Assembly: GCA_013115125.1 (NCBI GenBank)
Contig: JABANN010000216.1
Span: 1-52,299 of the forward strand
Origin: Perkinsus olseni
Lineage: Eukaryota
Length of the DNA: 52,299 bases
Direction: 5' to 3'
Below the pieces are notes generated by a model. The model worked only from the letters and a program-made list of their open reading frames with translations. It was not told the DNA's origin and searched no databases. Positions 17,077-44,922 of the stretch are shown here, in pieces. Each line of letters opens with the position of its first letter. The stretch's first letter is position 1. The position numbers were made by a program, and so were the translations under genes.

Positions 17077-19779
17077 ATGATACTCTTACCATCCCCGCCG
17101 ACCAGGGGTACGAGGCTTTACCCATGCATTGAAGAAGAGGAAGATGCCGAAGAGGAGGATGCCGAAGGGGGTGGTGATGCGAAAGCAGCGACGGTTGGGT
17201 GGCCGTAGTGGTGGTTGGGTCAGTTCAGGCAGCAGCCGCGGCAGGGCAGATGGTAGCGTCTTTGGTGGATTGCTTGGGGCAACTCGACCTCTACCCGAAA
17301 GATCCTTTACCGATGATAAGTACGCAGCCTGCCGAGGTGGTACATGCTGGGGTTACACGGGTTAAAAAGATACGCTCAGGTTCCACCGAAGGGTCTGTCG
17401 AGGTCTGCGTCGACCTCGGCTATGCTAGGCGTGGGCCGAAGGGAGGCGGCTGCGGCAGGGAGGCCGGTGAGGACTGTGGCTGGTGGGAGGGAGGAGGGGG
17501 CCCTGCCGAGCGTGCAGGCTGTCAAGGGATTGCATAAATCGGTAATAGGGAATTGAACCTGGGTTGTTTGTTAGAAGGATTGACGGCCACGGCGCAGGTC
17601 CAGTTCGCCACTTTACCGCACACACTTTGGCCGGTTGTGGTGGAGTCCTCACGACCGTCGTGCGGAGCGATGACCCCTTCCCCTCCACCAGCCACCAGCG
17701 ATGCTCGGCCGAGTAGACCCGGTATCGAAGACGACGATTCCACACCAGTAACACTAGGCTGCCCACTGTGCGACATGAAGGTCGTCAATGAAGAGGAGGA
17801 GGACACCACAGCTTGGAGTCGCCCACCCCGCTGCTCTCCTGCTTGTCATCAGACACTCAGGCCGGGTCTATCATCACATACAACATCACCACCGCAGCGG
17901 CCTCCTTCGAGTCACTCTGCCCGGCAACCCCACAAGTATCTTGTACACTTGCCATCGACATGAGTGTACCTGCTCGGGTGTCTTTTCGCACGATATTCGA
18001 CGGTCTTTCAGGCTGGACCCTCCCTGCCAAGCCGCGGTCTCGGCGTGACAGTCGGGTCGGGCCGAAGACCCCAGAAGGCTTGGTCGAGTCGTCGAGAGGG
18101 GAGGAGAGGCCTAACAGGGGTCGCCACTTCCACTGTCCTGTCTGTGGGGTACTGTGCGTGGCTGACCAAAGCGGGGAGGGGGTCAAGATGCATCTGCTGG
18201 GGTGTAGGATGGCTCCTAGGCGGAAGATGGGCCCCTCGATGATCAGCGTAAGGCGTGTGAATTTCGTGGCGCGTGACGCTGTCGGTAAGCCGACTGTTGC
18301 GTCAGATTGAGAAGGTTGCGGAGATAGCAGTAGCGGATAGTGACAGTTACACGGTGGATGGCATTCGACCATTAAATGCCGGGGCCGAGGATCGAACCCG
18401 GGACCATGGCTTGAGGTTCCACAGTACTTCCTCAGTTAGCTACCGCTGCACTGGTCATCGCTGCGACCTCAGACGAGGTGGCGACTCGTTCCTTCCCTCG
18501 AGTGCTCTCCTTCATAGAGCAGCTGGGCTCCCCGGGCGTGGCCCACCGGCCCCCTCGGAAGAAGTACCGCCTTCCGTCGCCCTGCCCGCCATCCACCATC
18601 AGGTACCGTAAGTTGTACGACTTAACACCACTTGATGACACCTGCTTGGACGACTACATCGACGCTTTGTGTGTCAACGCATTCGAAAACCGCGGCCTAG
18701 ATTTGACCGGTGCAAAGTACACCATTGTGGGTAGGGTGCCACGCGCCGGGCCCTCTAGACCCTGTCGGGGTGCCGGTGGCAGGCTCGGGAGTGCCTCCGG
18801 TGGTGTTTGGTATTATCCGTGGGATTGGTGGCGATTTGTACGGTATCAACTACATAGAAGCGGAGCAATGGCGAGAGGTCACCCACGTCCTGGTCGGGCC
18901 GATGGTCCATGTGAGTGGCGGGTGCGTTCTATGAGAAGTCGGTCGTATTCGGGTAGGTTGGGAGTTTGAGGAACTTTTGCCATACTGTAAGACGACTCGC
19001 CTTGGCTGATAAGCTCCTCTGGGTGGACTGTAGGGACTTGCTGACGCCGGCGACGGAAGGTGAGGTGCTTTTTGTGGGGGTTGGTATCTTAGGTTGAAGC
19101 TAGGTAGTGTCGGAGGATGGACAATCACCTCAGTCATGTCTGCCTTGACCTGTAGCAAGAGGACACTTGGTAGTGGTAGCGTGTTGGTTGAGGGAGGGAT
19201 GACGCCCTGTAGGCTCCGCCGGGAAGGCGTCCAAGCGGGTGAAGGGCTCTCCCACCCCGTCTCCGGTCACCTCCCCCGACACAAAACCTGTCTCCCTACC
19301 CGCCATGGCCTCCGGTCCTCCTACTCAGAAGACCGTGGATAAGCCTTTACGGTTATGTGCTGTCACCTCCAAGTCCTTCACGCCGGCGCCACGAGTGGTC
19401 CTGGGTCATCACAGCGATGCCTTCGCTACTACCAATGACCTCTCTCCGGGTCGATTGAGGGAAGAGGGTCATGGGAGGGCTACTGGCACGTACTCGACTG
19501 TCGATTACTCCCCGACTTACCGGGGCCTCGCGCCCTCATCCGAGTATGATGTCCCATTGATACCGGGAGTCACTGTCACGCCAGGCAAACATCGTGAGAG
19601 GAGGCGGAGGAGGGGGGCTGTACGGGGGTGGTATGACCACGGACTTTTCGGTGGATTTTTGGTATCAGGTTCGACCAGGCCCGGGTGTTGATGATACCGA
19701 AGTTACTCCGGCGCCTAGAAGGTCGACGCGTCTGTCTCGCAGTGCCCCGCCGAAGGATTCGCTTCTGTCCTCTGGTTGA
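17077..19779 (+). CDS. Multi-exon hypothetical protein with CxxC motifs and a low-complexity Pro/Ser tail
   Basis: Frames join across GT-AG introns (e.g. 18248-18305, 18354-18435); CPLC and FHCPVCG...HLLGC motifs. Confidence 0.55.
18377..18449 (-). other. Degenerate tRNA-like element (A-box in host exon, T-arm/B-box in intron)
   Basis: 73 nt: GCAGCGG TAGCTAA...GGTC CCGGG TTCGATC CTCGG CCCCGGC A; T-stem intact, acceptor stem 5/7 paired, no valid anticodon arm. Confidence 0.65.
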
Positions 19780-19966
19780 TGATGAGCTCGTCCACCCTAG
19801 TGAGAAGTTGTCTCGCTTAGAATTGAATCCCATGCATGGTCTAATCAGAAATGAAGGTTTCCCTCAGCATCGCTGTTGCTCGTTGTGGTGGAGCGCGGGC
19901 TTTTTACACTTTTTCCATCAGTTTCTTCTTCAACCCTTTCACGTCTACTTCTACTTCTCCTCCACT

Positions 19967-22299
19967 ATGGCTGACGGTTGGCCCGCAAGTTCAGTGTTCA
20001 ACTCCCGAGCACCCGGCTATGCCTTCGACGACATCATCCTCCTGCCGGGACACATCTCCTTCGGCGTCGAGACTGTAGAGCTAGCTGGTCGCATTTCGAA
20101 GGACATCACAGTGAGTCTTTCGTAATTTCGTGGCGCGTGACGATGCCTTCCTTGCCCCTTCAGCTGCGAACGCCCATCATCAGCAGCCCTATGGACACTG
20201 TGACCGAAGCGAAGATGGCGATCGCCATGGCCCTTCTCGGGTGAGGTGTCGCTGCGCGGACGCTTTTCGGATGATGTTACTTTGCAGGGGTATGGGCGTC
20301 ATCCATGGTAATATGACCACGGACGCTCAAGTGCAGGAGATCCTCAAGGTAGGTCAACCTCTTTTGTGACATGCATGAGTCGACCTTGGATACCATCAGG
20401 TCAAGCGTTACGAGAACGGCTTCATTATGGACCCCTATGTGCTCGGTCCGAATAATACTGTCGCCGACGTCGATGAGATCAGGAGGGTAATTTCGTGGCG
20501 CAGTGACGAATTTCATCTTCCTGTGGTGTAGGTCGAGGGGTTCTCCTCCGTGCCCATCACCCAGAGCAGCCGTATGGGAGGCAAGCTGCTGGGCATAGTC
20601 ACCAGCCGGGACATTGACTTCATCGACGATCGCACTACCCTTCTCAAGAACGTCATGACTCCGGCTAAGGACTTGGTGAGTATCTTTTTATTTGTGCAGT
20701 GCCAGAGTCGACCTCGTTGCGAGACAGCTTGGTCTGTTTGTTATTTTTTGAGGGATGGAATCCTTGATCGTCGATGATGCTGTTCAGGTTGTCGGCACCG
20801 AGCCCATCTCCCTTAACGAGGCGAACGACAAACTTCAGGATGCCAAGGTGGGCAAGCTGCCCATCATCAACGGCGACTGGGAGCTGGTGGCTCTGATCTC
20901 GAGGGAGGATCTCAAGAAGAATAAGTAATTTCGTGGCGCGCGGTCATGAGTTTAGAAGGAGGATTCTCATTAGGGACTACCCCAATGCGTCCAAGGATAA
21001 GAACAAGCAGTTGATTTGCGGCGCGGCTGTGCCGGTGAGCTTCCCTGCGACCTCGTACCATCTCTTGCACAACTCTCTTCAGATTCTTCCTGACATGGAG
21101 CTCCCTGCCCTCGAGGAGAGGTGCCGGCTGCTGGTCGAGGCTGGTGTTGATCTGCTGGTCCTCGATTCGCCTGATGGGGACTCGTCCGTCCAAGTGGAGT
21201 TAGTGAAGCGTCTTAAGGCTAAGTAGGGCACCTTTGTGCATGCGTGCAAGTCTCGTACCACTCCTTTCCCTACAGACATGATAATGTTAACATTATGGCG
21301 GGAAATGTGGTATCAGTAAGACAAGCCAAGAGCCTCATTGATGCTGGTAGTACACAGCCTCACCATCCATTCCTCTGGGCAGCCCCCCTTCCCCCTTCAT
21401 TCAGGAGCTGATTCCCTTAGAGTTGGTATGGGCTCCTCCTCGGTCGGTATTGGAGCTAGCATTACGGCTGTCGGCCGTGCCCAGGCCAGCGCCGTCTACC
21501 GCGTCGGCAAGTTCGCCCGGGAATATGCTAACGTGAGGATGGGAGGCCTCCGCCGCTGGTCGCTGCTTCAGGGGTGGTATCTTAGGTGCCTGTCGTGGCC
21601 GACGGTGGTATCCAGAACTCGGGTCACATTATGAAGGCTCTCTGCCTGGGGGCCAGCGCGGCTATGATGGGCAGTGGTTTGGCTGGTACTGATGAGGCGC
21701 CAGGTGAGTGGAAGGTGGAGTGCACGCATGCGCATGCGTGCAATTTTCATACTAACTTTTCGGTGACTCGTCGTGCAGGTGACTACTATTATTCTGATGG
21801 GGTCCGCGTGAAAACCTATAGAGGAATGCACTCCTTCAATGCTGTCCGCGAGTGCTTCACGAACGCTGGCAAGGACACTAGCCGACTCGACAGACCTTTC
21901 GCCGCTCAAGGTAATGGTATCTGGTTCGATTCCCACGGGCGTCATTTTTCCGCCTCTAGGCGTACAAGCAGCAGTTGTTGACAAGGGCTCAGTGAACTCT
22001 CTTGTGCCCTACCTCGTCCAAGGCTGCAGGCATGGGTTCCAGGACCTCGGCGTCCAGTCGGTCACCCAGCTACATCACCAACTCGACGATGGTAATGATA
22101 ACAACGTTTGGGGTCGCCGCGCGATGCCCCATAGAATCTCGCCTGGTTGTCGCCCTTCGCAATGCCACCTTGCCTAGGTACTCTCCGCATGGAAGTCCGG
22201 TCTGGCTCAGCTATCAAGGAGGGAGGGGTCCATGACTTGGTCCGACTGCCCGGAGCTGGGGCTGGTGGTGGGATGGGCCGTGGACAGGGCAGGAACTGA
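19967..22299 (+). CDS. IMPDH: IMP dehydrogenase-like protein with CBS domains, ~14 exons; catalytic Cys replaced by Gly
   Basis: [35 protein letters not shown] pair, AGNVV, LRVGMG, VVADGGI, KTYRGM, DKGSV, EGGVH; all introns GT-AG and in frame. Confidence 0.92.
21872..21944 (+). other. Degenerate tRNA-like element across an IMPDH exon/intron junction
   Basis: TAGCCGA at 21879 (tRNA position 8) and GGTTCGATTCC with T54 at 21925 (canonical 46-nt spacing); A73 at 21944, followed directly by TTTTT. Confidence 0.6.
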
Positions 22300-22476
22300 G
22301 TAACACTACTGCTGCTCCAACGTAACACCAAGACTGCCTACTAAAGGTCTCCAGTCGAACGATCATCGTAAACAAAGTCTCTAGACTCGACAGTTTTCCA
22401 CTTGAGTATTTATCAATAGCCAGGGGAGGGTGGACGATAGTCATCCGTGCAACGCGCAGTTCTTAGCGACTTTGGC

Positions 22477-23336
22477 ATGCCTCGCGGCTTGGGGACGACA
22501 ACACTTTCGCGGCATGCTAGTGGGACAGGAGGACCAGGCAGCCGTGCCGGTGTACGGGCGGGGAATGGCGACTCTGACGGTACTTGACAGCGGAGCGAAG
22601 CGATTTTCGAGTCATCGTTTTGTGCCTTAGGTATGGCCCCTCCAGTATGGGAAAGTGCCATGGTGCCCCTTTACGAGGAGTACATTGACGTGTGCTGTAG
22701 CATGTATTTTGATGGCTCTGCCCAGGGCGTCACGGTCGATGGTCTTCGGGGTTACTTCAGGTAGGCCAAGGGGTGCAGGGAATTGTTATAGTCCAACTAC
22801 CTTCTCATCAGGAGGTTGATCGAGCGTGAACGTGGACGCCCTGCCCGCCCGGAGCCCTTGACGGCCATCCCGAAGGAAGCGATGGCACGGGAGGGAGCAA
22901 CGGGGATAGTCGATGCTGAGGCGAGGAAGGAGCGTCTCTTGGCGGAGATATCGTCATGCACTGGGGGACTACTCACATCGAGGTTGAGAAAGAGACAGGC
23001 TATTGATCTGTAGGAAGTCGAGAGGGTTCATCCGTGCACTAGTCTGGTCAGGTGGGGTCCCTTCGACGCCGCCTTGTTTCTGGCCGGGCTGTCCCGTTAC
23101 GGTCGCAATTGGCATCGGATAGGGAAGCTCACCACCGGACGGAAAGATGCTAAGGATGTTGCAGATATGTACTAGTCTCCCCTGGACACGTGCTTGGGGA
23201 TTTCGCGCGCCACGAAATTGGCAGGTACTACGGTGCTCTGAAGTCGGCGAAAAGGACGAAGTCGTTGTGGAAGCGCTACGCTTGCATTCGGGACACGACC
23301 GCGGGAGCCCCTCCCAATCGATCGATCTCGGCTTGA
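22477..23336 (+). CDS. SANT/Myb-domain protein, multi-exon
   Basis: Spliced WGPFDAALFLAGLSRYGRNWHRIGKLTTGRKDAKDVADMYY matches the SANT pattern. Confidence 0.7.
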
Positions 23337-23442
23337 CAACTCGGTCACGTAAATAAAAATTGGTTGTAGTCTCTTGAGCAGGGAAGATCTGCTGCTGGTT
23401 GTTGTTGTTGTTGTTGAGTTTGCGCACGGCGAAGGATACGTC

Positions 23443-25762
23443 ATGGGTGTTCAGTTAGTTGGGGATGGACTTCTCGCCGGGCCGGCCGGATTTGTCGTCT
23501 CTGGTGAGGCTGTCTCTTCTCGTCTATGCGGGAGTCTCCGCGTAGGTTGACCGCAGCCCGCTGGACTCGATGCCCTTCGACGAAGGGAAGGGCTATGGCG
23601 GCTCGGTAGGAAGGTGGCCGTGCGGCTCTTCTCACTTCCAGCGCCATCGTTAGGCTTTTGCTGTTCCGTCGTACCGCTGTAAGATCGACCATAGTGAAGT
23701 CCTCTGTCTTGATCTCAGCAATCTTCGACTGGAGGGAGGCTGAAGGGCATCTCTCTGACGCCGCCGGAAGGACACTCCGAGGGTTGGGGTAGGAGGAGTC
23801 CTCTGGGGATGGAGTCGCCGAGCAGCCCGATGAGTATGTCGATTGTGGTGAAGTGCCGAATGATGATGGAGGAAATGTCTATTGAATTGCAGCAGATGAA
23901 AGATACTAAGTTAACTTGCAGGTGGAAGTCGAGCTCGGAAGGATATGTTACTTTCTTTGAGGTGCGACCTGGAGCGGAAGATCCGGGCGACGGAGCTTGA
24001 GTGTGCAAATCTGAGGGAAGATTATCAAAAGGAACTTAATAGGCGTAGGGAAATGCAGAATGAACTACAAGAGGCTGAGATAGCGAAGGGGGATCTTGAG
24101 GTAAAGGTCTCACGTTTTTCATGCAGGCGACTCTGGTTCGATCCCACCACTGGTCACGGCATTTTTTTTCACCTACTGGGACTCCTCAGGCCCAGCACGC
24201 CTCCATTCAACGGAAACTGCTGCTGGCCGAGTCTCGGGCGTCTGAGGCAGAGAAGCAGTGCGATGAACTCAGAAATGAAGTGGACAGTATCACTGCAAGG
24301 TGAGGGTGGGGGTCTCCTCTCCCACCCTCAGCCATGCGGCAGACTGTCTGAGGCAGCGGCGGCGAAGTCCCGAGTGGAGTTGCAGGCGGCTGATGCCGTG
24401 GCTGAGGTCCACACTTTAAAGACCGAACTGTGTGAGACTGGCAGCCGGCTGGTAGAGATAGAGGAGGTTCGATGCAAGGATTTGGTAGGAGGTTGCGTTG
24501 GGGAATTGCAAGATTGCAAGATTTTAGGAGGACTTTCAAGCGCAGCTGGTTGAGGCTGAGCGACATTGGCGGGAGGAACTGGACGCGAAGTATGAGGAGA
24601 TTGCGCAGCTCACGGATACGCTGAGTGAGACCACGGATGCCTTAGAGGGGCAGAGGTCCGAAAATGGTAGGGGGAGGGGTGACCGAGTGTGGGTAGGGGT
24701 TGTTCGTGGCTTCAGAGGTGCTCACTGAGAGGAGGGCGAGGGCGGAGGACCAGCATACGCGGCAGACGAAGGAGCTGCAACATCATATCTGCATGCTTGA
24801 AGGGGAGGTAGTGGAACTCCTCTGGGGTGGTGGTGGGGAGAGAGTGTTGAAACTGGTCGTTTTCATGGCAGTTGAAGTCGTCCTGCCATTCGGCGAGGCT
24901 GGTAGCGGAAAGTGAGAGGGACAACGCGACCTACGCCCGGAACCAGGTGGGTGGGGCAGAAGGATGATGGGTGGGAATCTTAACGACTCGACCTCAGGCC
25001 TTGGAGACTGAGGCTGGCTTGAGAAGGGAGTTCGCGGAAAAATTGCAGCAACAGCGGGAGAAGTACAAGCAGAGGGTAGGTCGATATTGGGCATCTGTTC
25101 GTTGCCATTGTCGACCTAAGATACGCGACCTCGAGGAGGAACTGCAGAAGCGGAAGGAATATGAGGCACGGATTAAGGAGTTGTTGAAGACTGAGGTCAG
25201 TTACACGCACGACGCATCTTAGGTTCACCATGGCAAGATTCGGATAAGGTCCTCGCTGCCTCTTCCGTAGACCTTCACACTCTCGACCCTCAATGACTGA
25301 CTACTGGTCTTCCTCTTCATCAGACCAGCCTACTTCGTCGCATGAACGACGCCAAGGCGATAACATCCCCCGACCCACCATGCCTCACCGCCAGTCCCCG
25401 GTGCCATCATGGCCATCGCTTTCGGGACTGTTGCATCCACCAGCATCATCACGGGGAGAGGAAAAGTCTGGAAGTCGTTGAAGTGTAGTTATGTAAGCAG
25501 CGCTCGCCCCGCTGATCGATTTTGGATCAGATCTTCGCCATCCCGACTGGCGGTGGTTGAAGAGTGTCCGAACGCTGCTGCTGCTCGGTACTTGGACGAA
25601 CAGATGAGGAAGGTCGAGAGGCGGATCTTATCGGGTGAGAGAGCTCCCCTGAGAGGCGCTGGGGATGGGCTATGGTCAGGCCTGAAGCATCGGAGATCGA
25701 GGAGTTGCAGCAGCCGTCCTCGTTATGAGTCGGCGGCGAGGGGAGGTCGACAGGCAAGCTGA
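23443..25762 (+). CDS. Multi-exon coiled-coil protein
   Basis: E/K/R/Q/L-rich heptad exons (ELECANLREDYQKELNRRREMQNELQEAE; IRDLEEELQKRKEYEARIKELL) separated by short GT-AG introns. Confidence 0.65.
24074..24156 (+). other. Degenerate tRNA-like element across an exon/intron junction
   Basis: A-box TAGCGAAGGGG at 24081 in the exon; B-box GGTTCGATCCC at 24135 in intron 24101-24189; T8 run at 24162; A-to-B spacing like long-variable-arm tRNAs. Confidence 0.55.
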
Positions 25763-25881
25763 AGTAATTCACCATCACCACGGACTGTCATACTTGTATC
25801 ACGATTATGATGATAATGGTGGGGGTGGTGTTGTGGGTGGCCGGGAGCATTCTGACACCTCTAGCTGTTATTTCTGAGCAC

Positions 25882-34241: not shown

Positions 34242-36670
34242 TCACTCTCGAAGATCGCCCTCATCATCCTGCTGCTCCCCACCAGTAGAGGCCCTCGCTT
34301 CACTAAGCTGATCGTCCAACTCCTCGGTGGTCGTGGAGGTGGCGCGACGAAGGGCCGATTTGCGGTAGAGGACGACGCCACCTGGATGGAGATACCCCGA
34401 CGCATAGGGAACTGTGAAATACTCACCAACGATGACTCGGAGAACTACTGAAAGAACCAACACCCAGCAGACGTTCGACTGGAGGTGCTCAGGAGAGGCT
34501 ATCGCTTGGCCGAAAACCCAAAGGCCAGCAGCGTTACCCATCTGTGCAGGGAGAATGGCCTGGGCTGAACCAGAGCGAGGAAGGCAGGGAGCTCACAGTG
34601 AAGACAGCTAGAAGGTTGGCTATGAACTTGCCCCGCTGGTTAGCAGGGAGGATCTGACAATATCGGGGAGGGTTAGGATCGATGGACTCGATCGACGCAC
34701 TACCATTTGCTGGAGAGAGTTGAAGAATATCGTGAACTGGTTATTGGCGGCGATGACCAGCACCCAGAGAGACGACAGTAGGACTGCATAGGCTGTACCA
34801 GTAGGGAAGAGGGGGTACACCTGAAGGTCGCCATCAGGATGTGGCTGTGAGACATTCACTGGTCCGACTAGCCGAAACGATTGTGACACTGATCCTAGAG
34901 AGCAACTACACGACGACTCAGTACTCACCATGACGCAGAAGACGGAGATCATCCCCGTTGCGATCTGGGCGGTGATACCGGACACTAGGCCTGATGGAGG
35001 AGAGGATGGTACAGTAGGGGTGGTAGGCCGACACTACCGGCGAAGGGGTCACTACTGAAGAGGAAGGCGCTGGCGTTTGACAAAATTGGGCCGATCACCC
35101 CACCCAGGGACACCTGAAAAGGTACGGGGATGGTGATGATGGAATCGACAAAGATCGACAGACGAGTAAGGAGCTGATGATCACAATGATTCGACGAAGA
35201 AGTGGTACGCGGGGTAACCGCTGGTTATCAACCGACAGGTCACCATACAGACAACGCAGCTGTTGAGGAAGTATCAGCTATCGCGACGCCCCTCCCCCTC
35301 AAGGGCACGCGAGGTTCGATGGCGAAGTGGAAGCCGCCTATCCCGTGAGAGCCATGACTAGCTTCCCTCTACCCACCAAACTGGCCAGACTCTTCCAGTT
35401 CACCGGGTCCATCTGTCTGAGTATCACCGGTACCGCAGCAGTTTGAAATGGATAGACGAAAACGTTGGTGATCAGCGTATTCAGAACAAGCACCTGACAG
35501 TTATTGCAGTAAACAACCCGTAAATATGGTCCGACGACGACAGTCGTGCGCGCCCAGGCGATCGATAAAGTCTCTGGTAGTATTTTTTAGTCCCACCCCC
35601 AGCCTGGGATCTCCCAGTGACTTCACTCCCTCCAGCAGCTGCGTCATCAAGCCCGGCCTTCGTCCTCCCGACCGCTTGCCGCTTCCATGGGACGATTCTG
35701 ATTAGGGAAAGGTGTGGTACTGAGGAAACAGAGACACTCACCATCCACTTGGACGGAAGATTTAACGCTCACAACCAGAAGGTAGAAGAGGATGCTGGCA
35801 TGCACGCACGTGGAAAAATCGAAGTACCTGACGCTGGGCGATGCGTCTCAAGGCAGCCAGCTGGAGAGGTACATCATGAAAAAGCCGACAGCGAAGGGAG
35901 TGAGGTAACGGCCAATCTTGTCGCCAGTGAGTTCGAATGAGTTCACCATAGGGAGCTCAGAACGGGAACGGACGACCTGGGGAGATGTGATGACCGTTGA
36001 GGAAATGCAAGTGGAGCAAGATTCATTACCAAAGGTGGGAGGCTCTTGCCGACTGGACCGGAGAAGGCCATCACTACTCCGAGGGCGATGTTGGATACTG
36101 CTAGGAACTGAAGAATATTCTGAGAACCTGACATAAGACAGAATAGAACCCGGGACCTCTATCATGAGAGCAGGACGCGCTGCCCACTACGCCATCACAG
36201 GTGCGTTTACCTGTCCAGATGGTCATCACCATCATAGCGCAGAATAGGTCTATTAAAACCTGATAAGACGGTGATCCAAGTCGATGCCCACTGGGAGGGA
36301 TTCGCCTTACGTAAACTTTTTTCGGCGGAGCGTTGTCGGTGATGACCCCAGCGGTCTGAGCCGACAATGTGCCTGTGAGAAATATCTTTCTCACCTACCA
36401 ACCGCACGCTCAACTTCAAGATTCTCACGTGTGAGATTCTGCCAGATCTGCGAGTGCGCGTATCTTTTAGCCCCGACCATATCGAGAGTCTCATACCGTA
36501 CCGCCGTCGCTGAGAAAATGCAAGATTGCAAGTGGAGCTCTGCCCACTTCTCTTTACTGACTTATGAAAGTGTGAGCGCATCTTGAAAGGAACTGGGCCA
36601 AGACGAACCTCCGAGCGTTGGGGCTGATGACCCGGGCGGCGTCAGTCGCCGTCGAGGCCGGAGCTTTCAT
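34242..36670 (-). CDS. MFS-type membrane transporter, multi-exon (copy B)
   Basis: NARRFVLAQFLSR, AGVITDNAPPKKVY, NIALGVVMAFSGPVGKSLPP, NSFELTGDKIGRYLTP; tandem paralogue. Confidence 0.7.
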
Positions 36671-36777
36671 CGGGAGGAAAAACAACAACAGTCTCCCTAC
36701 AGGAGGGCAATCATCAACTGCCGCGTCAGCCCACCAACGACACTCAAAAGGAGTACAGGAAATACTGAGCATGCTGC

Positions 36778-39326
36778 TCATGCATCGGTGGCGCAGCGGA
36801 ACTTGACGGGGTCGTCGCCAACACGGTGGGAGGGTCTAGCCCCGCCAACTCGAATGATACGACTCTTTCTTCGACCTTCCACACGCCTCGGTGACTGCGG
36901 CCTCTTCTTGCCTTCTTGACGACTCTCGCTCTCCCCAGCCCGGCTCCTATCGTCTTCCTTCACCACCAGCGCCACCTCAGCCACGACCGCCGCGACGCTG
37001 GGCTTACTCGTAGCCTGCGGCTGAGGGCCTTCCGACTGGTCACGGCGGTAACGATGCTGCTTCGGCCTCTCTGAGGTGACCTCGCTGGTCTTCACGTTGT
37101 ACCAGACCTCCTGTCCAACCACGACAGCCCTTCGCCAATCGCCCATCCGACCCTGCAAGGCCAGCCAGCGCTCATCGGAGAACTCATCCCCAGAGGGTAC
37201 AGCAGGCAGCGCTGCCTTGTGTTGGGGAGAGACTGGACGGGAGCCGGAGGCCTCTGAAGGAGAATTGCATCACCGCGTGGAATTTCGTGGCGCGCGAAAC
37301 TGCCATTACCAGTAAGTTGAAGTCGCTTCTCTCCCGGCCCCGGTTGGTGCCACAGTCGGTCGTGACCGCAGCGCCTACAAATTCCGTCCGCCCCTCCCAG
37401 GGTGAACCAAGGGCATTGGCAAAGATCCGCTTCCTCTGGTTGAAATCGACATCTATCACTCAAGTCAAGGGTCAACCTAAGATTCTCCTCCTCCGGACCA
37501 GAATCAATATCTTCATTATCCTCTGACGCAGCCGAAAGATTCTCTACCCTCCCGGGAATGGCCAACTCCGCGGCGACCGGCGTCCCCTGCGCATCCTCTG
37601 CAATAGTAGCTGGGGCTTCTTCACCATGTGCACGCAGGCGCAAAATCTTCGCTGTGCGTAACTGGGCGTATCTTTCAGCCTCCTCGTGGAAGATACTCGA
37701 CCCCAACCTCCCTTTCTCAACCGTAAGCTCCTCCTCCCCCTGATCGGATTCTCCCCAGACCTCAGCGACGCCTCGAATGGCATGCACATACGGGTCAGCA
37801 CCGAAGTTGACCGAAAGTCTCAACGTCGCTTCACTGTCGCCGAAGACACTCACAGCGACGTACGGCGCTGGCAGGAACCCCCACTCGGCTGAGGCGGGCC
37901 GAGGGGGCCGCATAGTCACCGGGCAGGATATCTCAAAGTCGGTGCCCCTGAGGGATCGATACCTGTCAAGAGGAACTTCGGGATGGCGGAGCTTCCAAGG
38001 TACGGAGCACTCAGAAAGGGCTACATGTCGAGCGGGCGTGGACAAAACGACTGCTCGAAAGGAACGGGAGTCGATGAACGGTCATAGACCAGTGAAGTGA
38101 GAAGTGAAGTACTCGTGAAATATGGCTCGGGCATAATTCTGCGAATTTCTGTGGTTCCTGAAAAACACTAATGTGGTACATAAACTTAATTTTGGGCTAC
38201 ACTTTCAGTAGCACCCCATTACCACAACACCAATAACGGATTTCCGAAGCACTGACGGCGACTCCCTCCGACCTCACCCGAAGAGCATTCTCTCGCACTC
38301 TAACTGCCGTAGGGGTGGTTCAAGGCCACCATCATCACCCATTGGCAGCCGCAAAGATTCTATCAGAATCGGACGGGCATGGCACAAGCCGCCATTCTTC
38401 AGAAAATGTACCGCCCCCATCAGCTTCGCTCCGTCGTATTTTCTGTCAACAATCATCGTAATGGTGTCTCCCGAGCTGAAGCCTCCTGGGTCACTTCTGA
38501 CAGACACCCTCCAGTCGCCTGAGTAAATCAACCCGTTCGAGAAGTAGCCCACACTGTACGGGAAATGGCCAGGGAACTCGCCCACCGGAGTTGGCTTAGG
38601 CGATAGACCAACACACATGATCGCTGACGAGCCCTCCGGCGCTGAATCGATTGTCAATTCCACTACGCAAAGGCGTTGGAAGGGCAGTGGCAAGCTGGAC
38701 AGGATCGTGCTGGGCTCTCCACCACCACTGAAGATCTCATACACCCCCGCCCGACCCTCTCGCTGGCACCATCCACCATCCCCAAGAACGTCCATCCTCC
38801 AAGACTCACCCCCTCCCAGAATTTGAGTCGTTCGAAGCGCCTGCCAATTAGAGACAGGGTAGACGTCGAAGGCATCGCCATAGAGTAAAGCTGGTCGGGT
38901 AGGGTCGATACCACCGAGGCCAACCCGCTCACTAGGCATGACGAAATCTTGCGATGAATCTTCCCCGGCTTCGCTCCGCCGCCCGTCTTTATTACCCTGA
39001 TCTTTGCCAGGTACCATCCAGCTGAAGGCCGCTTTAGAGGCCTCGTCAATACCAAATTTCCGCCGAATCCTGTCCAGATCAACCTTGGGAAAGAGCCTTC
39101 GACCCATGGAACTCTCAAAGAAGGCCACCAAAGCCTCCCCAATTGCAGCGGCAACATTCTCCCTCAGTTCCACCACTACCATCGACTCTCTATAATGGTA
39201 CAACAACAATAACGATACCAATAGCACTCCACAGATGACGAGCACAGCCAGCAGGGCCGGAGTAGAGGTGGAAGGATCAGGGCGGATCGGGAGGGGCCTA
39301 CGAGGGTCGTACGGGTAAGATGCCAT
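36778..39326 (-). CDS. Single-TM SPRY-domain protein with a Cys/His cluster and a WW-like domain
   Basis: N-terminal TM helix; SPRY features (VELTI, CVGL, FPGHFPYSVGYFSNG, GDTI, FLKNG) continue into the next ORF (PYVAVS...VNFG), implying one spliced gene; CQC...CRRCGH...H; WRRAV...VWYNVKTSEVTSERP. Confidence 0.7.
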
Positions 39327-39462
39327 CTTAAAGCGGGCAGGTGAACCAGTATTGCGCCCGCAAGGAGACCACTAGCAACACAACGTGAGTTGGGCAAACA
39401 CAGCGACAACAACATCATGACAATATTCAGTGGCTACCACTAAGTGGTAAGAATCATGATAG

Positions 39463-41400
39463 TCACTTCTGCAGTTTGTTACTCTCTTTTCGACTCTTCA
39501 TAAAGCTCAAGCCTCTCCCTATCATTTTCTTCTTCTTCGTGGAACCCCTCCGGAGCTTGCTTCGTACCGAATCATCGTTCTCGCCTGCGGTTTCACCGCT
39601 TCCCTGGCCAGTTTTTTCCTCACCACCCTCCTCCGCTGGCCTCCATGAGAACAACACGACCTCGCCATCGATGGTCTTCACTTGCACCGCTCCGCCGTCC
39701 CTCCGCAAATTTAATTCTGCAACCCCCATCACTAGGGGTTGGAGATTACTCCGATCGACAAGCTCCAACCTAAGATACTCTGGCATTCTTGTATCTTCCG
39801 TGCTCCAACCCAAGATAACTCTATAAAAGTAAGGACCTATCAATCCCATTGTTCTACAGCCCTTCTTCTCCGACGCACAATGGACCGACACTGTGCCGTT
39901 CTCGAATCTGATCCAAACGACCCAGGTTCAATTCTAGGCGAGCGCATTTTATTACCTTAGAATATCCTCTTTACCCTCTCCCTTGTCGTTGGTATAATAA
40001 CCATCTTCTTTAGGTGTCGGCAAGCCAGCCGCCTTACCATCTTCACCAATATGAGGCGCCCAAGGGAAATAAAAAGGATCTTCGTACCCAGTAAACGACA
40101 GTCTCACCGCGCTCCCGTCATGTCGGACCATCACTCGCGATCCATTAACCTCCTCCCGCCCTTCAGTGTAGAGATCGAGCTCATAGTACAACGGTCCGCC
40201 GGAATTTTTCACCCCATAAAGGAACCTTTGGCCTGCAAAATCCGACGTTGTGCTGGCCCGATCCACATCACGCGGACATCGCATCGACACAAATTGTTTA
40301 TGGGCAGCTCGAAATTGAAAGTAGCACCTCTCATAAGGGCCCTTCTGGCCAAAGTAATAGCCCTCCAGTCTCGGTTGAGGTAGATGAATTTTTCTCTGCG
40401 GAATTGCCAAGTCATGGCGTTCCCACTCGAAAAGTGTCTGCAAACCCGCGGCTTCTTCCGCTAGCCTTAGGAACAGACCATTATCGCTGACTGCCAGACT
40501 GTAATCTGTGAGATCCGCGGCCGAACCGAGAACACTGAGACCGAGTCTGCCGAAGTCTTGACCGGAATATCTGGTGGCGAAAGGATCGAAATCAGGGGTT
40601 GTGGAGATTCGGGAAGAGAAGGAAAAGCATGATAGCTTCTTTCTGAACGCTGGCGGTGTCTTGCTTGTGTCCGTGCAATCCATCTTCACAACCCTCCTTT
40701 GACGCGAATCCAGTCTCATCTTGATCTTGCACCCTTCGAACCTGCCTTGCCCGAGGTAGTAGCCAACCGCCCTCAACGGTAATTTCCCATCATCATCATC
40801 ATCAGTCGCCGAGCCCTCAATGAACTGACCCCAGTTTAGAAAGTCGAACCGAAAAAGCCCTCTACTTATCATAATTTTTTCGCAGTTCTGATGCATTTGA
40901 AAAAATATAATACCACCACCACGATCGCTCACCATCTCGTGCATATAATAAAACTCCGGGAGTGTCGAGTCCACGGGCTTATCAAAAACAACATCTTCGA
41001 AGGTCCACCTCTCGTTAATACCAAAACGATCTCTTTTCGGGCACGTCCAAGTCGCCACCCCTCTCGACGAATGCAAGTCCAGTCTTCGGAATGCCAACCG
41101 GCAGCCAACCAGAGAGTTGTTTCCAAAATAGTAGCCCGTCGTTTTCGGACAAGATTCCTCCCACAGGTTGGGGGAGACCGTAAAGGCACTGTCGACGCTG
41201 TCCAAGCTGACAACGTCCGAGCGCCTGCTGTTCAGACTGAAGCTGCTGATGCTACTACCCAGGCCACTACTGCTACTACTACTCCTGACCGACCTGCCGT
41301 GGACTTTGATAGTATTGGTGGTAGCACGGACGATCCCGCAGCAGGTGAGGAGGAGGCCGCAGGACAAGAGGGCTGCGGGGGAGGGTAAGGGCATGGACAC
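39463..41400 (-). CDS. Secreted protein with 3-4 repeats of a GYY..GC..CP module
   Basis: Signal peptide; 482-aa first exon, probably spliced to the 39463-39940 frame. Confidence 0.65.
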
Positions 41401-41608
41401 CGGGGACCAACAGCTGACACTGGAGACGTAGTCGATGCAGCGTGAAGGGTGGCGAGGGAATGACTTGCTGACGACAGTTCCCTTCCCTCTATTGGGAAAC
41501 TCAAGTCAACTAAGTGGTATTAACAACATCTGCACACATAACAAGATTGGATGATGATGACACCACCACAAGCTCATCACCGTCATCATATAGCTAAGCA
41601 AATGCTCC

Positions 41609-42010
41609 TTACACCTCATGTAGGTTCACCGAGACGTGGCCAGGGGCCGGGGCCTCGGTCCACTGGAAGGAATAGGAAGTATGGTCGGTGTCGAGAACGA
41701 CCTCCATGGCATCTTCCTTCATCTTCAGCTTGTGACCCTGTGGCCACTGCTTCTGGTACTTCTCGTCCCAAACCGTTATCTCGTGGTAGTAACCCCTCTT
41801 CTTGGGACTGGCTTCGTACCTCCATTTAGTGTGCATAATCCCGTGGAGACGAAGCTTGGGCGGACAGGTAAACTGCAGCAGCTCAGGGCCGAAAGTGAGG
41901 GAGCAACCGGTGAGGGGAGCACCGCCATAGCGATACGACCCCTCGGTCATTGGGTAGGGAAGGGCAGTAGTGACGTGAGGCAGTCCGAACAGGGTAAGGA
42001 GTTTGACCAT
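41609..42010 (-). CDS. Small secreted protein, single module
   Basis: Signal peptide; PMTEGSYRYGGAPLTGCSLTF...FTCP; homologous to 42636-43145. Confidence 0.7.
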   Translation of the reverse strand: MVKLLTLFGLPHVTTALPYPMTEGSYRYGGAPLTGCSLTFGPELLQFTCPPKLRLHGIMHTKWRYEASPKKRGYYHEITVWDEKYQKQWPQGHKLKMKEDAMEVVLDTDHTSYSFQWTEAPAPGHVSVNLHEV

Positions 42011-42635
42011 TGAAGACTACGCGGAAGTCTGTAAAGGATAACTGAGGACGGGAGGACAAGGCGAGCTAGAGAACTGTGGAGAATTCAGATCAATCACATC
42101 TAGATACTCTCTTCAGATCTAGTATCAGAAAATGCGTCAACCAGGAGCTGACCGAGTGTCGGGGCTGATAGGAAGGCGGCCTGCGATGGACACTCGACAC
42201 CTTCGAGAACGAACCCACCTCGTCGCGAAGGGTTCGTCACACTTCACGGGGAAGTCACCACTACCGCTTACTCGAATATCTTCGGGGTAAGCGCAGACTA
42301 GGAGAACGTCCGATGACGAGAGATGGATCATGACAGTCAGAGCTGTCCTTTGCATGCTCAGCCCCACATAGCTGGCGTGGGCCCGTGGCCACTACTACGC
42401 CCAAGTCCTTGAGGCTCAAAAGCAGATAAGGAAGGTGCTTCCGCCGACTCCTGAGAGGATTCAGCTTTTCGAAGGCCACTGGCCCTAGAAAATTCACGAT
42501 TAATGAAAATCTACTTCGACGGTCGTCGTCGATCGCCCTCACCGATACACGTATTTCCAGCGATAATCTTAGAAATGGACCGAGCAACCCGAGGCCGGTG
42601 GGCAGCAGAAATACAACAACAGGGACATGATAACA

Positions 42636-43145
42636 TCAGATGAGCTGTTTATCCCTCAGCCTGGCGAAGTCCTTCCTGCCTTGCTCGATCTCTTCTGGAA
42701 TGCCCCAAGACCTCTCCTCTCTCGGGCCCTCCATCGCCATTACTGGCTCTTCCTCAAAGGGACGGGGCATCAGATTAACCCAACCGAATTTGTAAGTGCG
42801 GGAGGGGGTCTCTAAGAGGATCTCCCGTGTGTCAGAGCTGAGCTTGAGTTTGTTATGGGCTGGCCACTGGTGGCGACGGAGGTCGTCCCAGAGCATAATC
42901 TCGTCGTAGTGGGAGTCCTCATCCTTCTGGGTGGGTTGCTTGATACTAGGACTGTAGCGCCATTTGTTGTCCATAAATTCAAAGATGTCGCATCCATGAG
43001 GGCACTGGAACCCCATCGCTGCACCGTCGAACACGATATAGCAGCCGTGAAGGGGACCCCCGGTGTTACGGTAGGACCCCTTCGTCCTTGGGGACCCGAG
43101 AACTGCAGAGGACGGGATGAGGAGGGAGAGGAGAAGTCTTACCAT
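42636..43145 (-). CDS. Small secreted protein, single module
   Basis: Signal peptide; PRTKGSYRNTGGPLHGCYIVF...FQCP, KWRY, EIMLWD, QWP.HKLK shared with 41609-42010. Confidence 0.72.
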   Translation of the reverse strand: MVRLLLSLLIPSSAVLGSPRTKGSYRNTGGPLHGCYIVFDGAAMGFQCPHGCDIFEFMDNKWRYSPSIKQPTQKDEDSHYDEIMLWDDLRRHQWPAHNKLKLSSDTREILLETPSRTYKFGWVNLMPRPFEEEPVMAMEGPREERSWGIPEEIEQGRKDFARLRDKQLI

Positions 43146-43504
43146 TGGGAAACTAAAGACGATAGATACAGGAGAAGCCCTTGGGAGCTCACAAGGGTTC
43201 TGGGGCTTCCGAGCAACCAGTTGTGGAGCTCAGGTTCGATTCGGAAACCACAATTCACGGGTTAAAATGAATCCTGAGTTACAGTATGGCCTACCGAGCA
43301 AGGGGTAGTGCTGAAGAGGTGACCCGCCTGCCAGGGTCCCCTCCCCGATGGTTGGCCCGGCCGTAAACGTCAGAGAGGGGCCTGACACCTTGTGGAAAAG
43401 CGAGACATGTGCGGACGGAGACGGGAGACGGGGTCATCGTTGAGGAAATGAAAGAGAGCAAGAGTGCCATCTTGATTCGTGTGGTTCACAGTCCATGCGT
43501 CACT

Positions 43505-44922
43505 ATGTTTTTGCCCACGGGGTTGGCATCAGATGAAGTTGATGCAGCGGCGGTAGATGAGGACACTATCAGTAGAGTCCAAGTTTATGCTACTGACGCC
43601 TTGCCAACCTATTCAGCCCACCAGTGGCGTCATGAGGTGCCAAAGTGGCTTTAATTGAGGCAATACAGGCGCTGACTGCTCAGATACGATTTCTCATAGA
43701 ACTGTTGATGTGGTACTTCTACATTTTCCGGGGGAAATGTGGTAGGACTAGACCGACCCCTGGGCAGGAGCTCTACAACGTGCATTACACTGTACCATCA
43801 CGCAAGGCCAAGATCCTCTTCCTCCTACTTGGACCGGTCCTCTCCTACGCTTCCGTCTGTGCCAGGTAGGGGACGCTCGGCCGTCGTCCGTCTGTTACCT
43901 CTTTCTTCAGGTTTGGCGACAGAGGGTCCTGGCTGCAGAGCTTCGTGGCGAAGTTGAGGTTGTTGCACTGGGTGGCCTTCCTCAGCGGCATCCCCGGGGT
44001 TAGTGGTAGTATAAATCGGGTTAGGGGGGGGATGGAGGGAGGGAGCCCCTATGGATACTTGGGCCGGTGGAGGAGTTTTGAACTTTACTGTTGTGCTGCA
44101 GAGTTGGTCGTGACAGTTGCGGGCGGCGGCGGCGCCCTTTGTGGTGAGAGACCTGGCGATTATTCCATGTACAGCACGACATACAAGCTGTGAAGCCTCT
44201 CTGGATTGACCTGCCTGTGGTGCGGTCGAATAGGAATGCTTCGACCTCGCTTGGTCGGACCGGACGCTGTTGGCCGTCGTGCCTCCCTTAACTCCGCTTG
44301 ATGCGACACCGGGCCCCTCTTAAAATATTGCGCGAATTTTTTGCGAAGAGGATGTTGGGGTTGACGATCCTCATTCGGTCGCCCTTTTCAGCAAGCCCAG
44401 TTGCGACGGCTTTGGGTATGAAGAGCGTACAGATCGATCCGCAGGCTCAACGTGTTCATCAGCTGGAATACTTCCATAGGTAGGGTGTTAAATCCGCGCG
44501 CCAAAGGTCTCGGGTTCGATCCCCACGGGCAGCCTTTTCGAGGTACTTGCTGGTGCATCACTTAACTGAGCTCCTCACAGCAGCGTGGCCTCTGGTTTCC
44601 AATACCAGTGCCTTCAAACGAGTACGTCTTTGCGTCACGCGCCACGAAATTCTCTAGGAAAGTTCCCTCGGCAGGTTTCCCGGAGACTTGCCGGTGTGTG
44701 TAGGAAGCCTCTCGATAAAAGCAACTGCGGCGTGTGCAGGGTAGTAGCCGTGGAATGATCTCCTACCACACCAGTCGTTTCTTTTCTCAGTGCCCGGCTC
44801 AAGTCGGATGGCATCAGATTTCTCCCTGCGGGTGTAGGATCTGCCATTACTGTTGGCATGCCGAGGAGGTCCCTTCGAAAGCCGCCTGCCCGTCCTGCGG
44901 AGGCCCTTGTAGTGTTCCCTAA
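43505..44922 (+). CDS. PEX2: RING-finger peroxin (PEX2-like), multi-exon
   Basis: EVDAAAVDED, TPGQELYNVHY, LLHWVAFLSG, LEYFHRYLLVHHLTELL and C-terminal RING CGVC...CGCRICHYC...CPSC after splicing. Confidence 0.7.
44462..44534 (+). other. Degenerate tRNA-like element across a PEX2 exon/intron junction
   Basis: 73 nt with T8A9, G18G19, AGGTC variable region and GGTTCGATCCC; first 4 acceptor pairs intact; followed directly by TTTT; other stems broken. Confidence 0.6.

What the first reader, a model, noticed from the sequence alone, without database searches (positions are those of the whole stretch)
18377..44534. Family of 'ghost tRNA' Pol III/TFIIIC cassettes straddling exon-intron junctions of unrelated genes
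Seen: four elements (18377-18449 minus, 21872-21944, 24074-24156, 44462-44534) have a B-box GGTTCGAT(T/C)C(C/T) inside a short intron. In each, an A-box-like motif sits in the neighbouring coding exon at tRNA-like spacing (46 nt from T8 to T54 in three, 56 nt in one). Three are followed by a T4-T8 run at or just after tRNA position 73. Anticodon and D stems are destroyed, so these are not decoding tRNAs. The IMPDH and PEX2 copies share GGTTCGAT(T/C)CCCACGGGC (17/18 identical). Known: A/B boxes bind TFIIIC, T-runs end Pol III transcription, and extra-TFIIIC sites act as chromatin organisers in yeasts and mammals. Inference: this could be a genome-wide system of intragenic TFIIIC anchors or short Pol III transcripts overlaid on codons, or relics of tRNA/SINE insertions that became introns.
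Basis: partly seen in the sequence, partly recalled or inferred. Interest (0 to 1): 0.85.

Follow-up and report, generated by a model that had tools for sequence, protein, structure and literature searches.

The report
Decayed tRNA-like elements forming short introns
Seven worn-out copies of tRNA genes sit inside or across the short introns of unrelated genes in a Perkinsus-like parasite genome, most likely old insertions that the cell tolerates by splicing them out.

Summary
The B-box observation is real. GGTTCGAWYCY occurs 5 times in the window against 0.26 expected. Profile searches add three more decayed copies, making seven (E1-E7, 17.5-44.5 kb).

By protein homology the window is from a Perkinsus-like alveolate.

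The elements are tRNA-gene relics of more than one kind, and they lie in both orientations relative to their host genes. E1 scores 18.9 bits on the Rfam tRNA model, below the 29-bit threshold. E2 aligns full-length to a tRNA profile built without it (E=6.5e-5).

For four of them the intron is nearly all element: E2 49 nt, E5 48 nt, E6 56 nt, E7 83 nt.

E1, E2 and E6 straddle an exon-intron junction. E4 has no A box.

A role as TFIIIC anchors or Pol III units was not tested and has little support here. No whole genome was available, so nothing is shown genome-wide.

The parts
17535..17617 (-). E6: tRNA-like relic, antisense to its + strand host gene. B-box GGTTCAATTCC; A-box-like TGGCGAACTGG lies 53 nt before T54, in the downstream exon. 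The terminator has been deleted. It spans the whole 56-nt intron 17542-17597(+) and runs 20 nt into the next exon.
   Evidence: The sequence is near-identical to E5 over GAATTGAACCTGGGTYGTTTG and the GTAATA intron start. The 5' part scores P=1.8e-4 at a +7 shift, the best of 19 shifts tried. ARAGORN finds it only at the 80% threshold, where 29 hits are listed. Rfam tRNA gives nothing. Intron ends come from P0098/P0099 exon ends at 17544 and 17598 and from RNA-type contig pieces of X7 and X8 that begin at 17597.
18377..18449 (-). E1: full-length tRNA pseudogene, antisense to its + strand host gene. It straddles a junction. The 3' half with the B-box (18377-18423) is read as codons (...NAGAEDRTRDHGLRFH). 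The 5' half with the A box lies in the 49-nt intron 18424-18472(+).
   Evidence: Rfam tRNA 18.9 bits, threshold 29, E=0.18 in a 301-nt search. ARAGORN finds it at the 85% threshold. tblastn of the P. olseni proteins P0097-P0099 gives the exon/intron layout. That layout rests on annotated gene models and was not confirmed by RNA here.
21872..21949 (+). E2: full-length tRNA-like relic, sense, in the IMPDH-like gene. Positions about 1-39 are the last 39 nt of an exon (codons ...[12 protein letters not shown]). Position 40 through the T5 run fills 39 of the 49 nt of intron 21911-21959.
   Evidence: Splice joint in X7, X8 and X9, none in DNA run X1. nhmmer with a profile of tRNA-Asn+E1+E7 aligns 21878-21949 to model positions 7-78, E=6.5e-5. 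The exon part is 19/33 identical to tRNA-Asn, with an empirical P of about 5e-5 to 8e-5. PWM test P=1.4e-4.
24074..24169 (+). E3: tRNA-like relic, sense, in a coiled-coil protein gene. The B-box and T8 run lie in the predicted 89-nt intron 24101-24189. The intron starts GTAAAGGTCTC, the same words that precede E4's B-box. An A-box-like TAGCGAA lies in the exon at distance 56.
   Evidence: The full-length alignment needs a 10-nt insert, E=0.009. The 5' part is not significant on its own. The intron is predicted only. Splicing restores a continuous coiled-coil reading frame; that step is inference.
36123..36202 (-). E7: full-length decayed tRNA-like element, sense. It has a perfect A box (TGGCGTAGTGG) and a broken B-box (GGTTCTATTCT), and no T-run. 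It fills about 73 of the 83 nt of intron 36128-36210(-).
   Evidence: The A box is at distance 46 after correcting the register. 20/33 identical to the tRNA-Asn 5' half. Intron ends come from one X8 contig whose loose end at 36130 matches uniquely at 36214-36228. Rfam gives nothing at E<=10.
39902..39953 (+). E5: 3' half of a tRNA-like element with terminator (GGTTCAATTCTAGGCGAGCGCATTTTATTAC), antisense to its - strand host gene. It fills 44 of the 48 nt of intron 39908-39955(-). The intron's GTAATA start is the reverse complement of the tRNA trailer.
   Evidence: nhmmer with the E1-E4 profile, E=0.0022. Sequence. Homologues P0100 and P0102 (84% and 91% identical) lack exactly these 16 codons, and the window has in-frame stops there. 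The trailer resembles that of the true tRNA-Asn.
44501..44539 (+). E4: 3' half of a tRNA-like element (position about 40 to the T4 run), sense, in the PEX2-like gene. It lies inside the 63-nt intron 44480-44542, which ends 4 nt after the T-run. There is no A box.
   Evidence: nhmmer with an independent profile hits model positions 40-75, E=0.004. Pfam Pex2_Pex12 on 43636-43866(+). Intron ends come from P. olseni model P0105 and from keeping the RING finger in frame.
47575..47648 (+). True tRNA-Asn(GTT) gene, used as the comparator. It is not part of the relic set.
   Evidence: ARAGORN. Rfam tRNA 64.5 bits. Trailer ctATTTTATT.

Best explanation
The elements are decayed copies of tRNA genes: the gene body with its own Pol III terminator, not mature tRNA. 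There are at least two sub-families (E2/E3/E4 and E5/E6) plus two singletons (E1, E7).

They entered protein-coding genes of a Perkinsus-like genome in either orientation. They are tolerated because all or most of each copy is removed from the mRNA as a short spliceosomal intron. The splice sites lie at or inside the element's ends. Whatever is not spliced out is read as codons, as in E1, E2 and E6.

On this reading the A box, B box and T-run are inherited from the parent tRNA gene. They are not a designed cassette.

Shown here: tRNA ancestry, both orientations, coincidence of intron and element, and junction straddling.

Inferred: that insertion created the introns, and how the copies spread.
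For: **1. tRNA ancestry**
- E1 scores 18.9 bits on Rfam tRNA.
- A profile built from tRNA-Asn+E1+E7 finds E2 (E=6.5e-5), E4 (0.004), E3 (0.009) and E5 (0.13) as the next four hits in the window.
- T-runs start exactly 22 nt after G52 in E1, E2, E4 and E5.
- E5's T-run is antisense to its host gene, so it cannot be a polypyrimidine tract.

**2. Sub-families**
- E2 and E4 match at 29 of 37 positions.
- E5 and E6 share GTAATA and GAATTGAACCTGGGTYGTTTG.
- E2, E3 and E4 share TC at positions 49-50, which cannot pair with A64/C65.

**3. The intron is roughly the element**
- E2: 39 of 49 nt. E5: 44 of 48. E6: 56 of 56. E7: about 73 of 83.
- A pre-existing intron plus an insert would be much longer than the 42-nt minimum seen among the 15 confirmed introns.

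**4. Position relative to genes**
- B-box cores lie in introns in 6 of 7 cases, while predicted introns make up 16-21% of the window (P about 1e-4 to 5e-4).
- The upstream exon ends in AG in 5 of 7 relic introns, against 21 of 125 other introns (P=0.002).

**5. Straddling**
- E2's exon part is tRNA-like at P of about 1e-4.
- E1's layout comes from the homologue models.

**6. Context**
- P. marinus is reported to hold several hundred copies of five tRNA gene types, and DNA transposons that target tRNA genes (PMC3706591, section 10 and passages read).
Against: - No whole genome was available, so copy number and spread are unknown.
- DNA-run depth over E2's bin (99.7) and E3's bin (90) is near the single-copy level of about 85-91. 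There are therefore few or no near-identical copies elsewhere, unlike active introners.
- No clear target-site duplication. The similarity between exon end and intron end for E2 and E3 ranks only 9th of 132.
- The IMPDH-like exon that carries E2's 5' half has no length change against human IMPDH2. A simple insertion does not predict this. It needs a compensating loss, or the similarity arose otherwise.
- The junction cuts the tRNA-like sequence at different positions in E1, E2 and E6.
- The E3 and E4 introns, and E1's exon status, rest on prediction or on annotated homologue models.
- The AG test was framed after looking at the data.
Confidence: 0.5

Rival explanations
1. These were tRNA genes nested in pre-existing introns that died and decayed in place. 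The introns later shrank toward the genome's preferred length of about 50 nt. No intron was created by the elements.
For: tRNA genes nested in introns are known in other eukaryotes; one search gave search listings only, and the general point is recalled. E7 is a whole tRNA-like element inside one intron. Intron lengths in the window cluster tightly at 41-60 nt, so deletion pressure is plausible. There is no clear target-site duplication.
Against: E2's 5' half lies in coding exon of a conserved enzyme family. E1 and E6 also cross junctions. In E5 and E6 the 5' splice site GTAATA is itself the reverse complement of the tRNA trailer. The AG excess at upstream exon ends, 5 of 7 against 21 of 125, is not expected from decay in place.
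Confidence: 0.2
2. These are functional intragenic TFIIIC sites or short Pol III units. The B-box, with an A box at tRNA spacing and a T-run, is kept by selection. It would serve to bind TFIIIC as a chromatin landmark or to make RNAs of about 75-80 nt.
For: - 6 of 7 elements keep a consensus-compatible B-box although the stems are destroyed.
- Among the five elements that are not plainly whole tRNA-like by Rfam or ARAGORN, TRGCNNA lies at a tRNA-like distance in 3 of 5 (E2 at 46, E3 at 56, E6 at 53). The chance rate is 0.023 per site.
- In E1, the 23 residues encoded by the tRNA-like stretch differ at 0, 1 and 0 positions from three P. olseni paralogues. The flanking exons differ more.
- E2's A-box half overlies an exon with no length change against human IMPDH2.
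Against: - Ascertainment: the elements were found through the B-box, so copies with a broken B-box are invisible.
- E7's B-box is broken, E6 has no terminator, and E4 and E5 have no A box.
- E2's similarity to tRNA-Asn is spread over the D and anticodon arms, not confined to the A box. That looks like common descent rather than selection for a promoter.
- No occupancy or small-RNA data could be obtained (one search gave contigs only).
- No conservation test in orthologous introns was possible.
Confidence: 0.15
3. The motifs are chance matches in a GC-rich genome.
For: Each B-box is only 11 nt. The A-box consensus is loose, at 0.0017 per nt.
Against: 5 hits against 0.26 expected, and 0 of 100 shuffles reach 5. 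Independent profile hits reach E=6.5e-5. Sub-family similarity is 29 of 37. T-runs sit at a fixed offset.
Confidence: 0.02

Closest known systems
Introners / introner-like elements (Micromonas, Aureococcus, fungi, dinoflagellates, Amoebophrya)
   Same: A repeated element makes up the intron. Splice sites lie at or in the element ends, and it works in either orientation. Insertion sites favour AG|G. For Amoebophrya I read passages of PMC7789003. The other lineages are recalled or seen only in search listings.
   Different: Here the element is a tRNA-gene copy with a Pol III terminator, not a transposon with inverted repeats. Copies are about 80% alike, not near-identical. No target-site duplication was shown, and genome-wide spread was not shown. 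Parts of some copies stay in the exon.
tRNA-derived SINEs and tRNA pseudogenes
   Same: The A and B boxes come from a tRNA. Copies are many and decayed, in either orientation, mostly in non-coding parts of genes. Some copies are truncated at the 5' end (E4, E5).
   Different: There is no tRNA-unrelated body and no A-rich or LINE-like tail. The copy ends at the tRNA gene's own T-run. More than one tRNA type is involved. The copy itself serves as the intron.
Extra-TFIIIC (ETC) sites of budding yeast and chromosome-organising clamps of fission yeast
   Same: Isolated B-box matches outside working tRNA genes. The properties of ETC sites are recalled; one search gave search listings only.
   Different: ETC sites are defined by TFIIIC occupancy without Pol III, which was not tested here. 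They are mostly intergenic, whereas these lie in introns and still show whole-tRNA ancestry.
Dada DNA transposons that target tRNA genes in Perkinsus marinus (Kojima and Jurka 2013, PMC3706591)
   Same: Same genus-level lineage. The paper shows that tRNA genes are amplified there and involved in mobile-DNA traffic.
   Different: Dada elements are 4.7-11 kb and insert at TAGCTC in the A box. Nothing of that size or with that junction is present at the seven relics.

Membership tests
tRNA gene (Rfam RF00005) | Covariance-model score at or above the gathering threshold of 29 bits (cloverleaf plus conserved bases) | tested here: not met
   E1 scores 18.9 bits. E2, E3, E4, E6 and E7 give no hit at E<=10 in short stretches. 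E5 gave no hit at E<=1 in the whole-window scan and was not searched as a short stretch. The true tRNA-Asn scores 64.5 bits.
tRNA-derived repeat / pseudo-tRNA | Sequence similarity to tRNA genes in the right register, including the A box, B box and terminator | tested here: met
   Profile hits. 19/33 and 20/33 identity to the tRNA-Asn 5' half for E2 and E7. T-run offset of 22 nt in four elements.
SINE | A tRNA-unrelated body and a 3' tail (A-rich or LINE-derived), flanked by target-site duplications | tested here: not met
   The copies end at the T-run or at the acceptor strand. There is no tail. The target-site duplication test was inconclusive.
Introner | Element boundaries coincide with intron boundaries | tested here: met
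   E2 39 of 49 nt, E5 44 of 48, E6 56 of 56, E7 about 73 of 83. This is less true for E3 (about 56%) and E4 (57%).
Introner | Many near-identical copies across the genome | tested here: inconclusive
   No whole genome is held. DNA-run depth over E2 and E3 is near single-copy. The metagenome pattern scan returned 13 loci, none related. Within the window there are 7 copies at about 80% identity within sub-families.
Introner | Target-site duplication that supplies a splice site | tested here: inconclusive
   E2 and E3 rank 9th of 132 for similarity between exon end and intron end. The upstream exon ends in AG in 5 of 7 cases against 21 of 125.
ETC / TFIIIC-only site | B-box consensus | tested here: met
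   GGTTCGAWYCY in E1-E4. GGTTCAATTCY in E5 and E6. E7 is broken.
ETC / TFIIIC-only site | TFIIIC bound without Pol III | not testable with these tools
   No occupancy data. The runs laid were contigs.

The most novel reading that the evidence does not exclude
In perkinsids, copies of tRNA genes (body plus terminator) may act as a source of new spliceosomal introns. A copy lands in a coding region in either orientation. Cryptic GT and AG sites in or beside it let the spliceosome remove most of it, and the rest is absorbed into the protein. This would be an introner class derived from a Pol III gene. Its members could still carry working B-boxes, and so place TFIIIC inside Pol II genes.
Probability: 0.3. 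Interest if true: 0.75.

Novelty: new variant of a known kind. Interest (0 to 1): 0.55.

Why it matters
How new introns arise is a long-standing question. The known sources are transposon-like introners and a few captured DNA fragments.

Introns built from tRNA-gene copies would be a further source, with a built-in link to Pol III factors. One of them cuts through an expressed, conserved enzyme-family gene.

The idea is directly testable by comparing Perkinsus genomes. It would also warn annotators that B-box or tRNA-like hits in this lineage are mostly dead copies inside genes.

If it is only ordinary decay of nested tRNA genes, the finding is of local interest.

Tried and rejected
- **Whole genome and earlier findings.** Neither was available.
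- **Metagenome scan** with the E2/E4 consensus. It returned 13 loci. Eleven are one conserved stretch of an unrelated organism and two are GC-rich bacteria.
- **Protein atlas search** for taxonomy. Nothing usable.
- **My first guess that the organism is a basidiomycete fungus.** It was wrong, and named homologues corrected it.
- **The T-run as a mere polypyrimidine tract.** Rejected, because E5's run is antisense to its host and the offset from G52 is fixed.
- **The B-box as a branch-point motif.** No match to the usual CTRAY form (inspection; the consensus is recalled).
- **Target-site duplications.** Weak, 9th of 132.
- **My own gene finder.** It merges neighbouring genes and over-calls introns. 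I use it only for rough intron fractions and as a baseline. It recovered 13-15 of the 15 confirmed introns, depending on settings.
- **My first E4 intron model** (101 nt). Replaced by the 63-nt model.
- **My first E7 and E6 intron ends.** Replaced.
- **Literature.** Searches for tRNA-derived introns, Perkinsus introners, ETC sites in introns and the AATTTCGTGGCGCG motif found nothing on point. Supplements and figures were not available, including Fig. 2 of PMC3706591, which shows P. marinus tRNA sequences and might name the parent tRNAs.
- **RNA cover of E1, E3 and E4.** Of the joint rows, 118 were not shown, so nothing can be said for these.


Full report
**What the window is**

It is an intron-rich eukaryote with GC of about 46-58%. 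RNA-type contigs confirm 15 introns of 42-112 nt between 20.1 and 23.1 kb.

Named homologues place it in or next to Perkinsus, a perkinsid alveolate:
- A MINDY deubiquitinase exon is 80% identical to a P. marinus protein, and 96% identical over a part of it to a P. olseni protein.
- Other genes have their best hits in P. olseni.

No whole genome is held. Everything below therefore rests on this 52-kb window, on homologous proteins and on one laying of run contigs.

**Check of the observation**

- GGTTCGAWYCY occurs 5 times against 0.26 expected, and 0 of 100 shuffles reach 5.
- One hit is a true tRNA-Asn: ARAGORN and Rfam at 64.5 bits.
- The T-runs, the 17/18 identity between the IMPDH and PEX2 copies (which extends to 29 of 37) and the loss of the stems all hold.
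- E2's intron (21911-21959, 49 nt) is confirmed by joints in X7, X8 and X9 and is absent from DNA run X1.

**More members**

- A profile of E1-E4 found E5 (39910-39953, E=0.0022).
- Reading the predicted introns showed E6 and E7.
- A profile of all eight sequences finds nothing further in the window.

That makes seven relics between 17.5 and 44.5 kb, plus one live tRNA gene.

**They are tRNA-gene relics, not just B-boxes**

- E1 is a full-length match to the Rfam tRNA model at 18.9 bits, below the 29-bit threshold.
- A profile built only from tRNA-Asn, E1 and E7 recovers E2 over model positions 7-78 (E=6.5e-5). It also recovers E4's 3' half (0.004), E3 with a 10-nt insert (0.009) and E5 (0.13). 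These are the next-best hits in 104.6 kb of both strands.
- The T-run begins exactly 22 nt after G52 in E1, E2, E4 and E5. E5's trailer resembles that of the live tRNA-Asn.
- E5's T-run is antisense to its host gene. The T-runs are therefore terminators carried over from tRNA genes, not polypyrimidine tracts. The source was a gene copy, not a mature tRNA, since there is no CCA.
- The acceptor strands differ between the elements, and E7 looks like a different isotype from E1. So more than one parent tRNA is involved.

Within sub-families the likeness goes beyond tRNA-wide conserved bases:
- E2/E4 match at 29 of 37.
- E2, E3 and E4 share TC at positions 49-50, which cannot pair with A64/C65.
- E5 and E6 share GTAATA and a 21-nt block.

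**Relation to the host genes**

| Element | Orientation | Intron | Share of intron that is element | Evidence for the intron |
|---|---|---|---|---|
| E2 | sense | 21911-21959, 49 nt | 39 of 49 | RNA-type contig joints |
| E3 | sense | 24101-24189, 89 nt | about 56% | predicted only |
| E4 | sense | 44480-44542, 63 nt | 57% | P. olseni PEX2-like model and RING finger kept in frame |
| E7 | sense | 36128-36210, 83 nt | about 73 of 83 | one X8 contig's loose end, matching uniquely 83 nt away |
| E5 | antisense | 39908-39955, 48 nt | 44 of 48 | two homologues lack exactly these 16 codons; window has stops there |
| E6 | antisense | 17542-17597, 56 nt | 56 of 56 | homologue exon ends and contig piece ends |
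| E1 | antisense | 18424-18472, 49 nt | A-box half only | P. olseni gene models |

In four cases the intron is almost nothing but the element.

B-box cores lie in introns in 6 of 7 cases, while predicted introns make up 16-21% of the window. That intron fraction comes from my own crude gene finder and is rough.

**Straddling**

- **E2.** The claim stands, and it is stronger than a 7-nt motif. The last 33 nt of the exon are 19/33 identical to the live tRNA-Asn 5' half in the exact register. Only 8 of 104,534 window positions reach that level, and those 8 include the tRNA itself, E7 and E2. A PWM test gives P=1.4e-4.
- **E6.** The 5' part in the downstream exon scores P=1.8e-4 at a 7-nt longer spacing, the best of 19 shifts.
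- **E1.** The element straddles the other way round. Three P. olseni homologue models read the B-box half as ...NAGAEDRTRDHGLRFH, and the A-box half is in the intron. These are annotated models and were not checked by RNA here.
- **E3.** The exon part is not significant on its own.
- **E4 and E5.** Neither has an A box.

Taken as a motif test, TRGCNNA lies at a tRNA-like distance in 3 of the 5 less complete elements, against 0.023 per site by chance. The set of allowed distances was chosen after seeing the data.

**An awkward fact**

The IMPDH-like exon that carries E2's 5' half has no length change against human IMPDH2. Query residues 1-38 align to chain 399-436, and residues 2-38 of the next exon align to 444-480. 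A plain insertion would add codons.

The same protein has Gly where human IMPDH2 has Cys331. That this Cys is catalytic is recalled. The protein may therefore be a pseudoenzyme with a relaxed flap region, where replacement is easier. This remains unexplained and weighs against the simple story.

**Mechanism**

I favour insertion of tRNA-gene copies into genes, made harmless by splicing (confidence about 0.5).

For it:
- The intron is roughly the element.
- Both orientations occur.
- In E5 and E6 the 5' splice site GTAATA is the reverse complement of the tRNA trailer.
- E2 and E3 start their introns at the same tRNA position, 40 (GTAAWGGTMTC).
- The upstream exon ends in AG in 5 of 7 cases, against 21 of 125 other introns (P=0.002).

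Against it:
- There is no clear target-site duplication.
- DNA depth over E2 and E3 is near single-copy.
- The IMPDH length shows no change.

How the copies moved is unknown. P. marinus is reported to have hundreds of copies of five tRNA gene types, and Dada transposons inside tRNA genes (PMC3706591, section 10 and passages). tRNA genes are thus caught up in mobile-DNA traffic in this lineage, but nothing Dada-like sits at these sites.

**Rivals**

- **Decay of tRNA genes nested in old introns (0.2).** This explains E7, but not E2, E1 and E6, nor the splice sites made from element ends.
- **Selected TFIIIC or Pol III sites (0.15).** This has some hints in its favour: intact B-boxes, A-box spacing, and the E1 peptide being more conserved than its flanks. 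It suffers from ascertainment bias and from the broken members, and it could not be tested.
- **Chance.** Excluded.

Origin and present function are separate questions. A relic could still bind TFIIIC.

**Known relatives and novelty**

The closest kinds are introners, tRNA-derived SINEs or pseudogenes, and ETC sites (see the tables).

I found no paper reporting tRNA-derived introns or introners in Perkinsus. These searches cover open-access text only.

I rate it a new variant of a known kind, of moderate interest. The evidence is limited to seven copies in one window.

Noticed in passing
window 16886-16896(-), 18262-18272(+), 20126-20136(+), 20491-20501(+), 20929-20939(+), 23207-23217(-), 37283-37293(+), 44639-44649(-); near-copy at 48821-48831(+): A second and more abundant intron motif, AATTTCGTGGCGCG(TGACG or CGAAA). 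It has 8 exact 11-mer copies against 0.65 expected. All lie in confirmed or predicted introns, in both orientations. In three introns of the IMPDH-like gene the motif follows GTA directly: twice that GTA is the 5' splice site (GTAATTTCGTGGCGC), and once it lies 11 nt inside the intron. Only the core of about 20 nt is shared. The DNA run shows many partial contig matches at these places, so the motif is genome-wide. It may be a protein-binding site; a resemblance to cell-cycle promoter boxes is recalled only.
   Followed up: partly
window 16158, 22591, 38423, 38968, 45845, 46927, 49474: The motif GCGGAGCGAAGC recurs 7 times on both strands. At least one copy lies in a confirmed intron, 22580-22630.
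   Followed up: no
window 19084, 21577, 25114, 27001, 39768 and neighbours: The motif GTATCTTAGGT(T/C)GA and its reverse complement recur about 5 times, mostly in introns, sometimes at the 3' splice site.
   Followed up: no
window 3892-3973: A near-perfect hairpin of about 28 bp (GACGCTGAGGGAAGATGGGCATGTCTAG and its complement). It gives weak false miRNA hits in Rfam. Pieces of the arm recur at about 14512, 18222 and 24011. It may be a small inverted-repeat element.
   Followed up: no
window 21407-21532 (exon of the IMPDH-like gene, about 19.9-22.3 kb): The highly expressed IMPDH-like protein has Gly where human IMPDH2 has Cys331 (GSICIT against SSVGIG). By register it also lacks the Arg-Tyr pair of the flap. 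The roles of these residues are recalled. It may be a pseudoenzyme.
   Followed up: partly
window 1745-2761(-) and 9864-10934(-): Two long ORFs of 338 and 356 aa share many 11-mers and near-identical predicted introns (1703-1749 and 9822-9868). Neither has a Pfam family. This looks like a local gene duplication about 8 kb apart.
   Followed up: no
window 17300-19800(+): The host gene of E1 and E6 belongs to a Perkinsus-specific multi-copy family. Three P. olseni proteins are 59-71% identical overall and 87-96% identical in single exons. The family has CxxC motifs and no Pfam family. Two tRNA-like relics overlap its coding exons.
   Followed up: partly
window about 39838-39888(-): Just after the exon that follows E5's intron, the window encodes 17 residues (GCRTMGLIGPYFYRVIL) that homologue P0102 lacks (P0100's alignment there is incomplete), with no stop codon and no obvious GT..AG. 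This could be a retained or non-canonical intron, or a real insertion.
   Followed up: no
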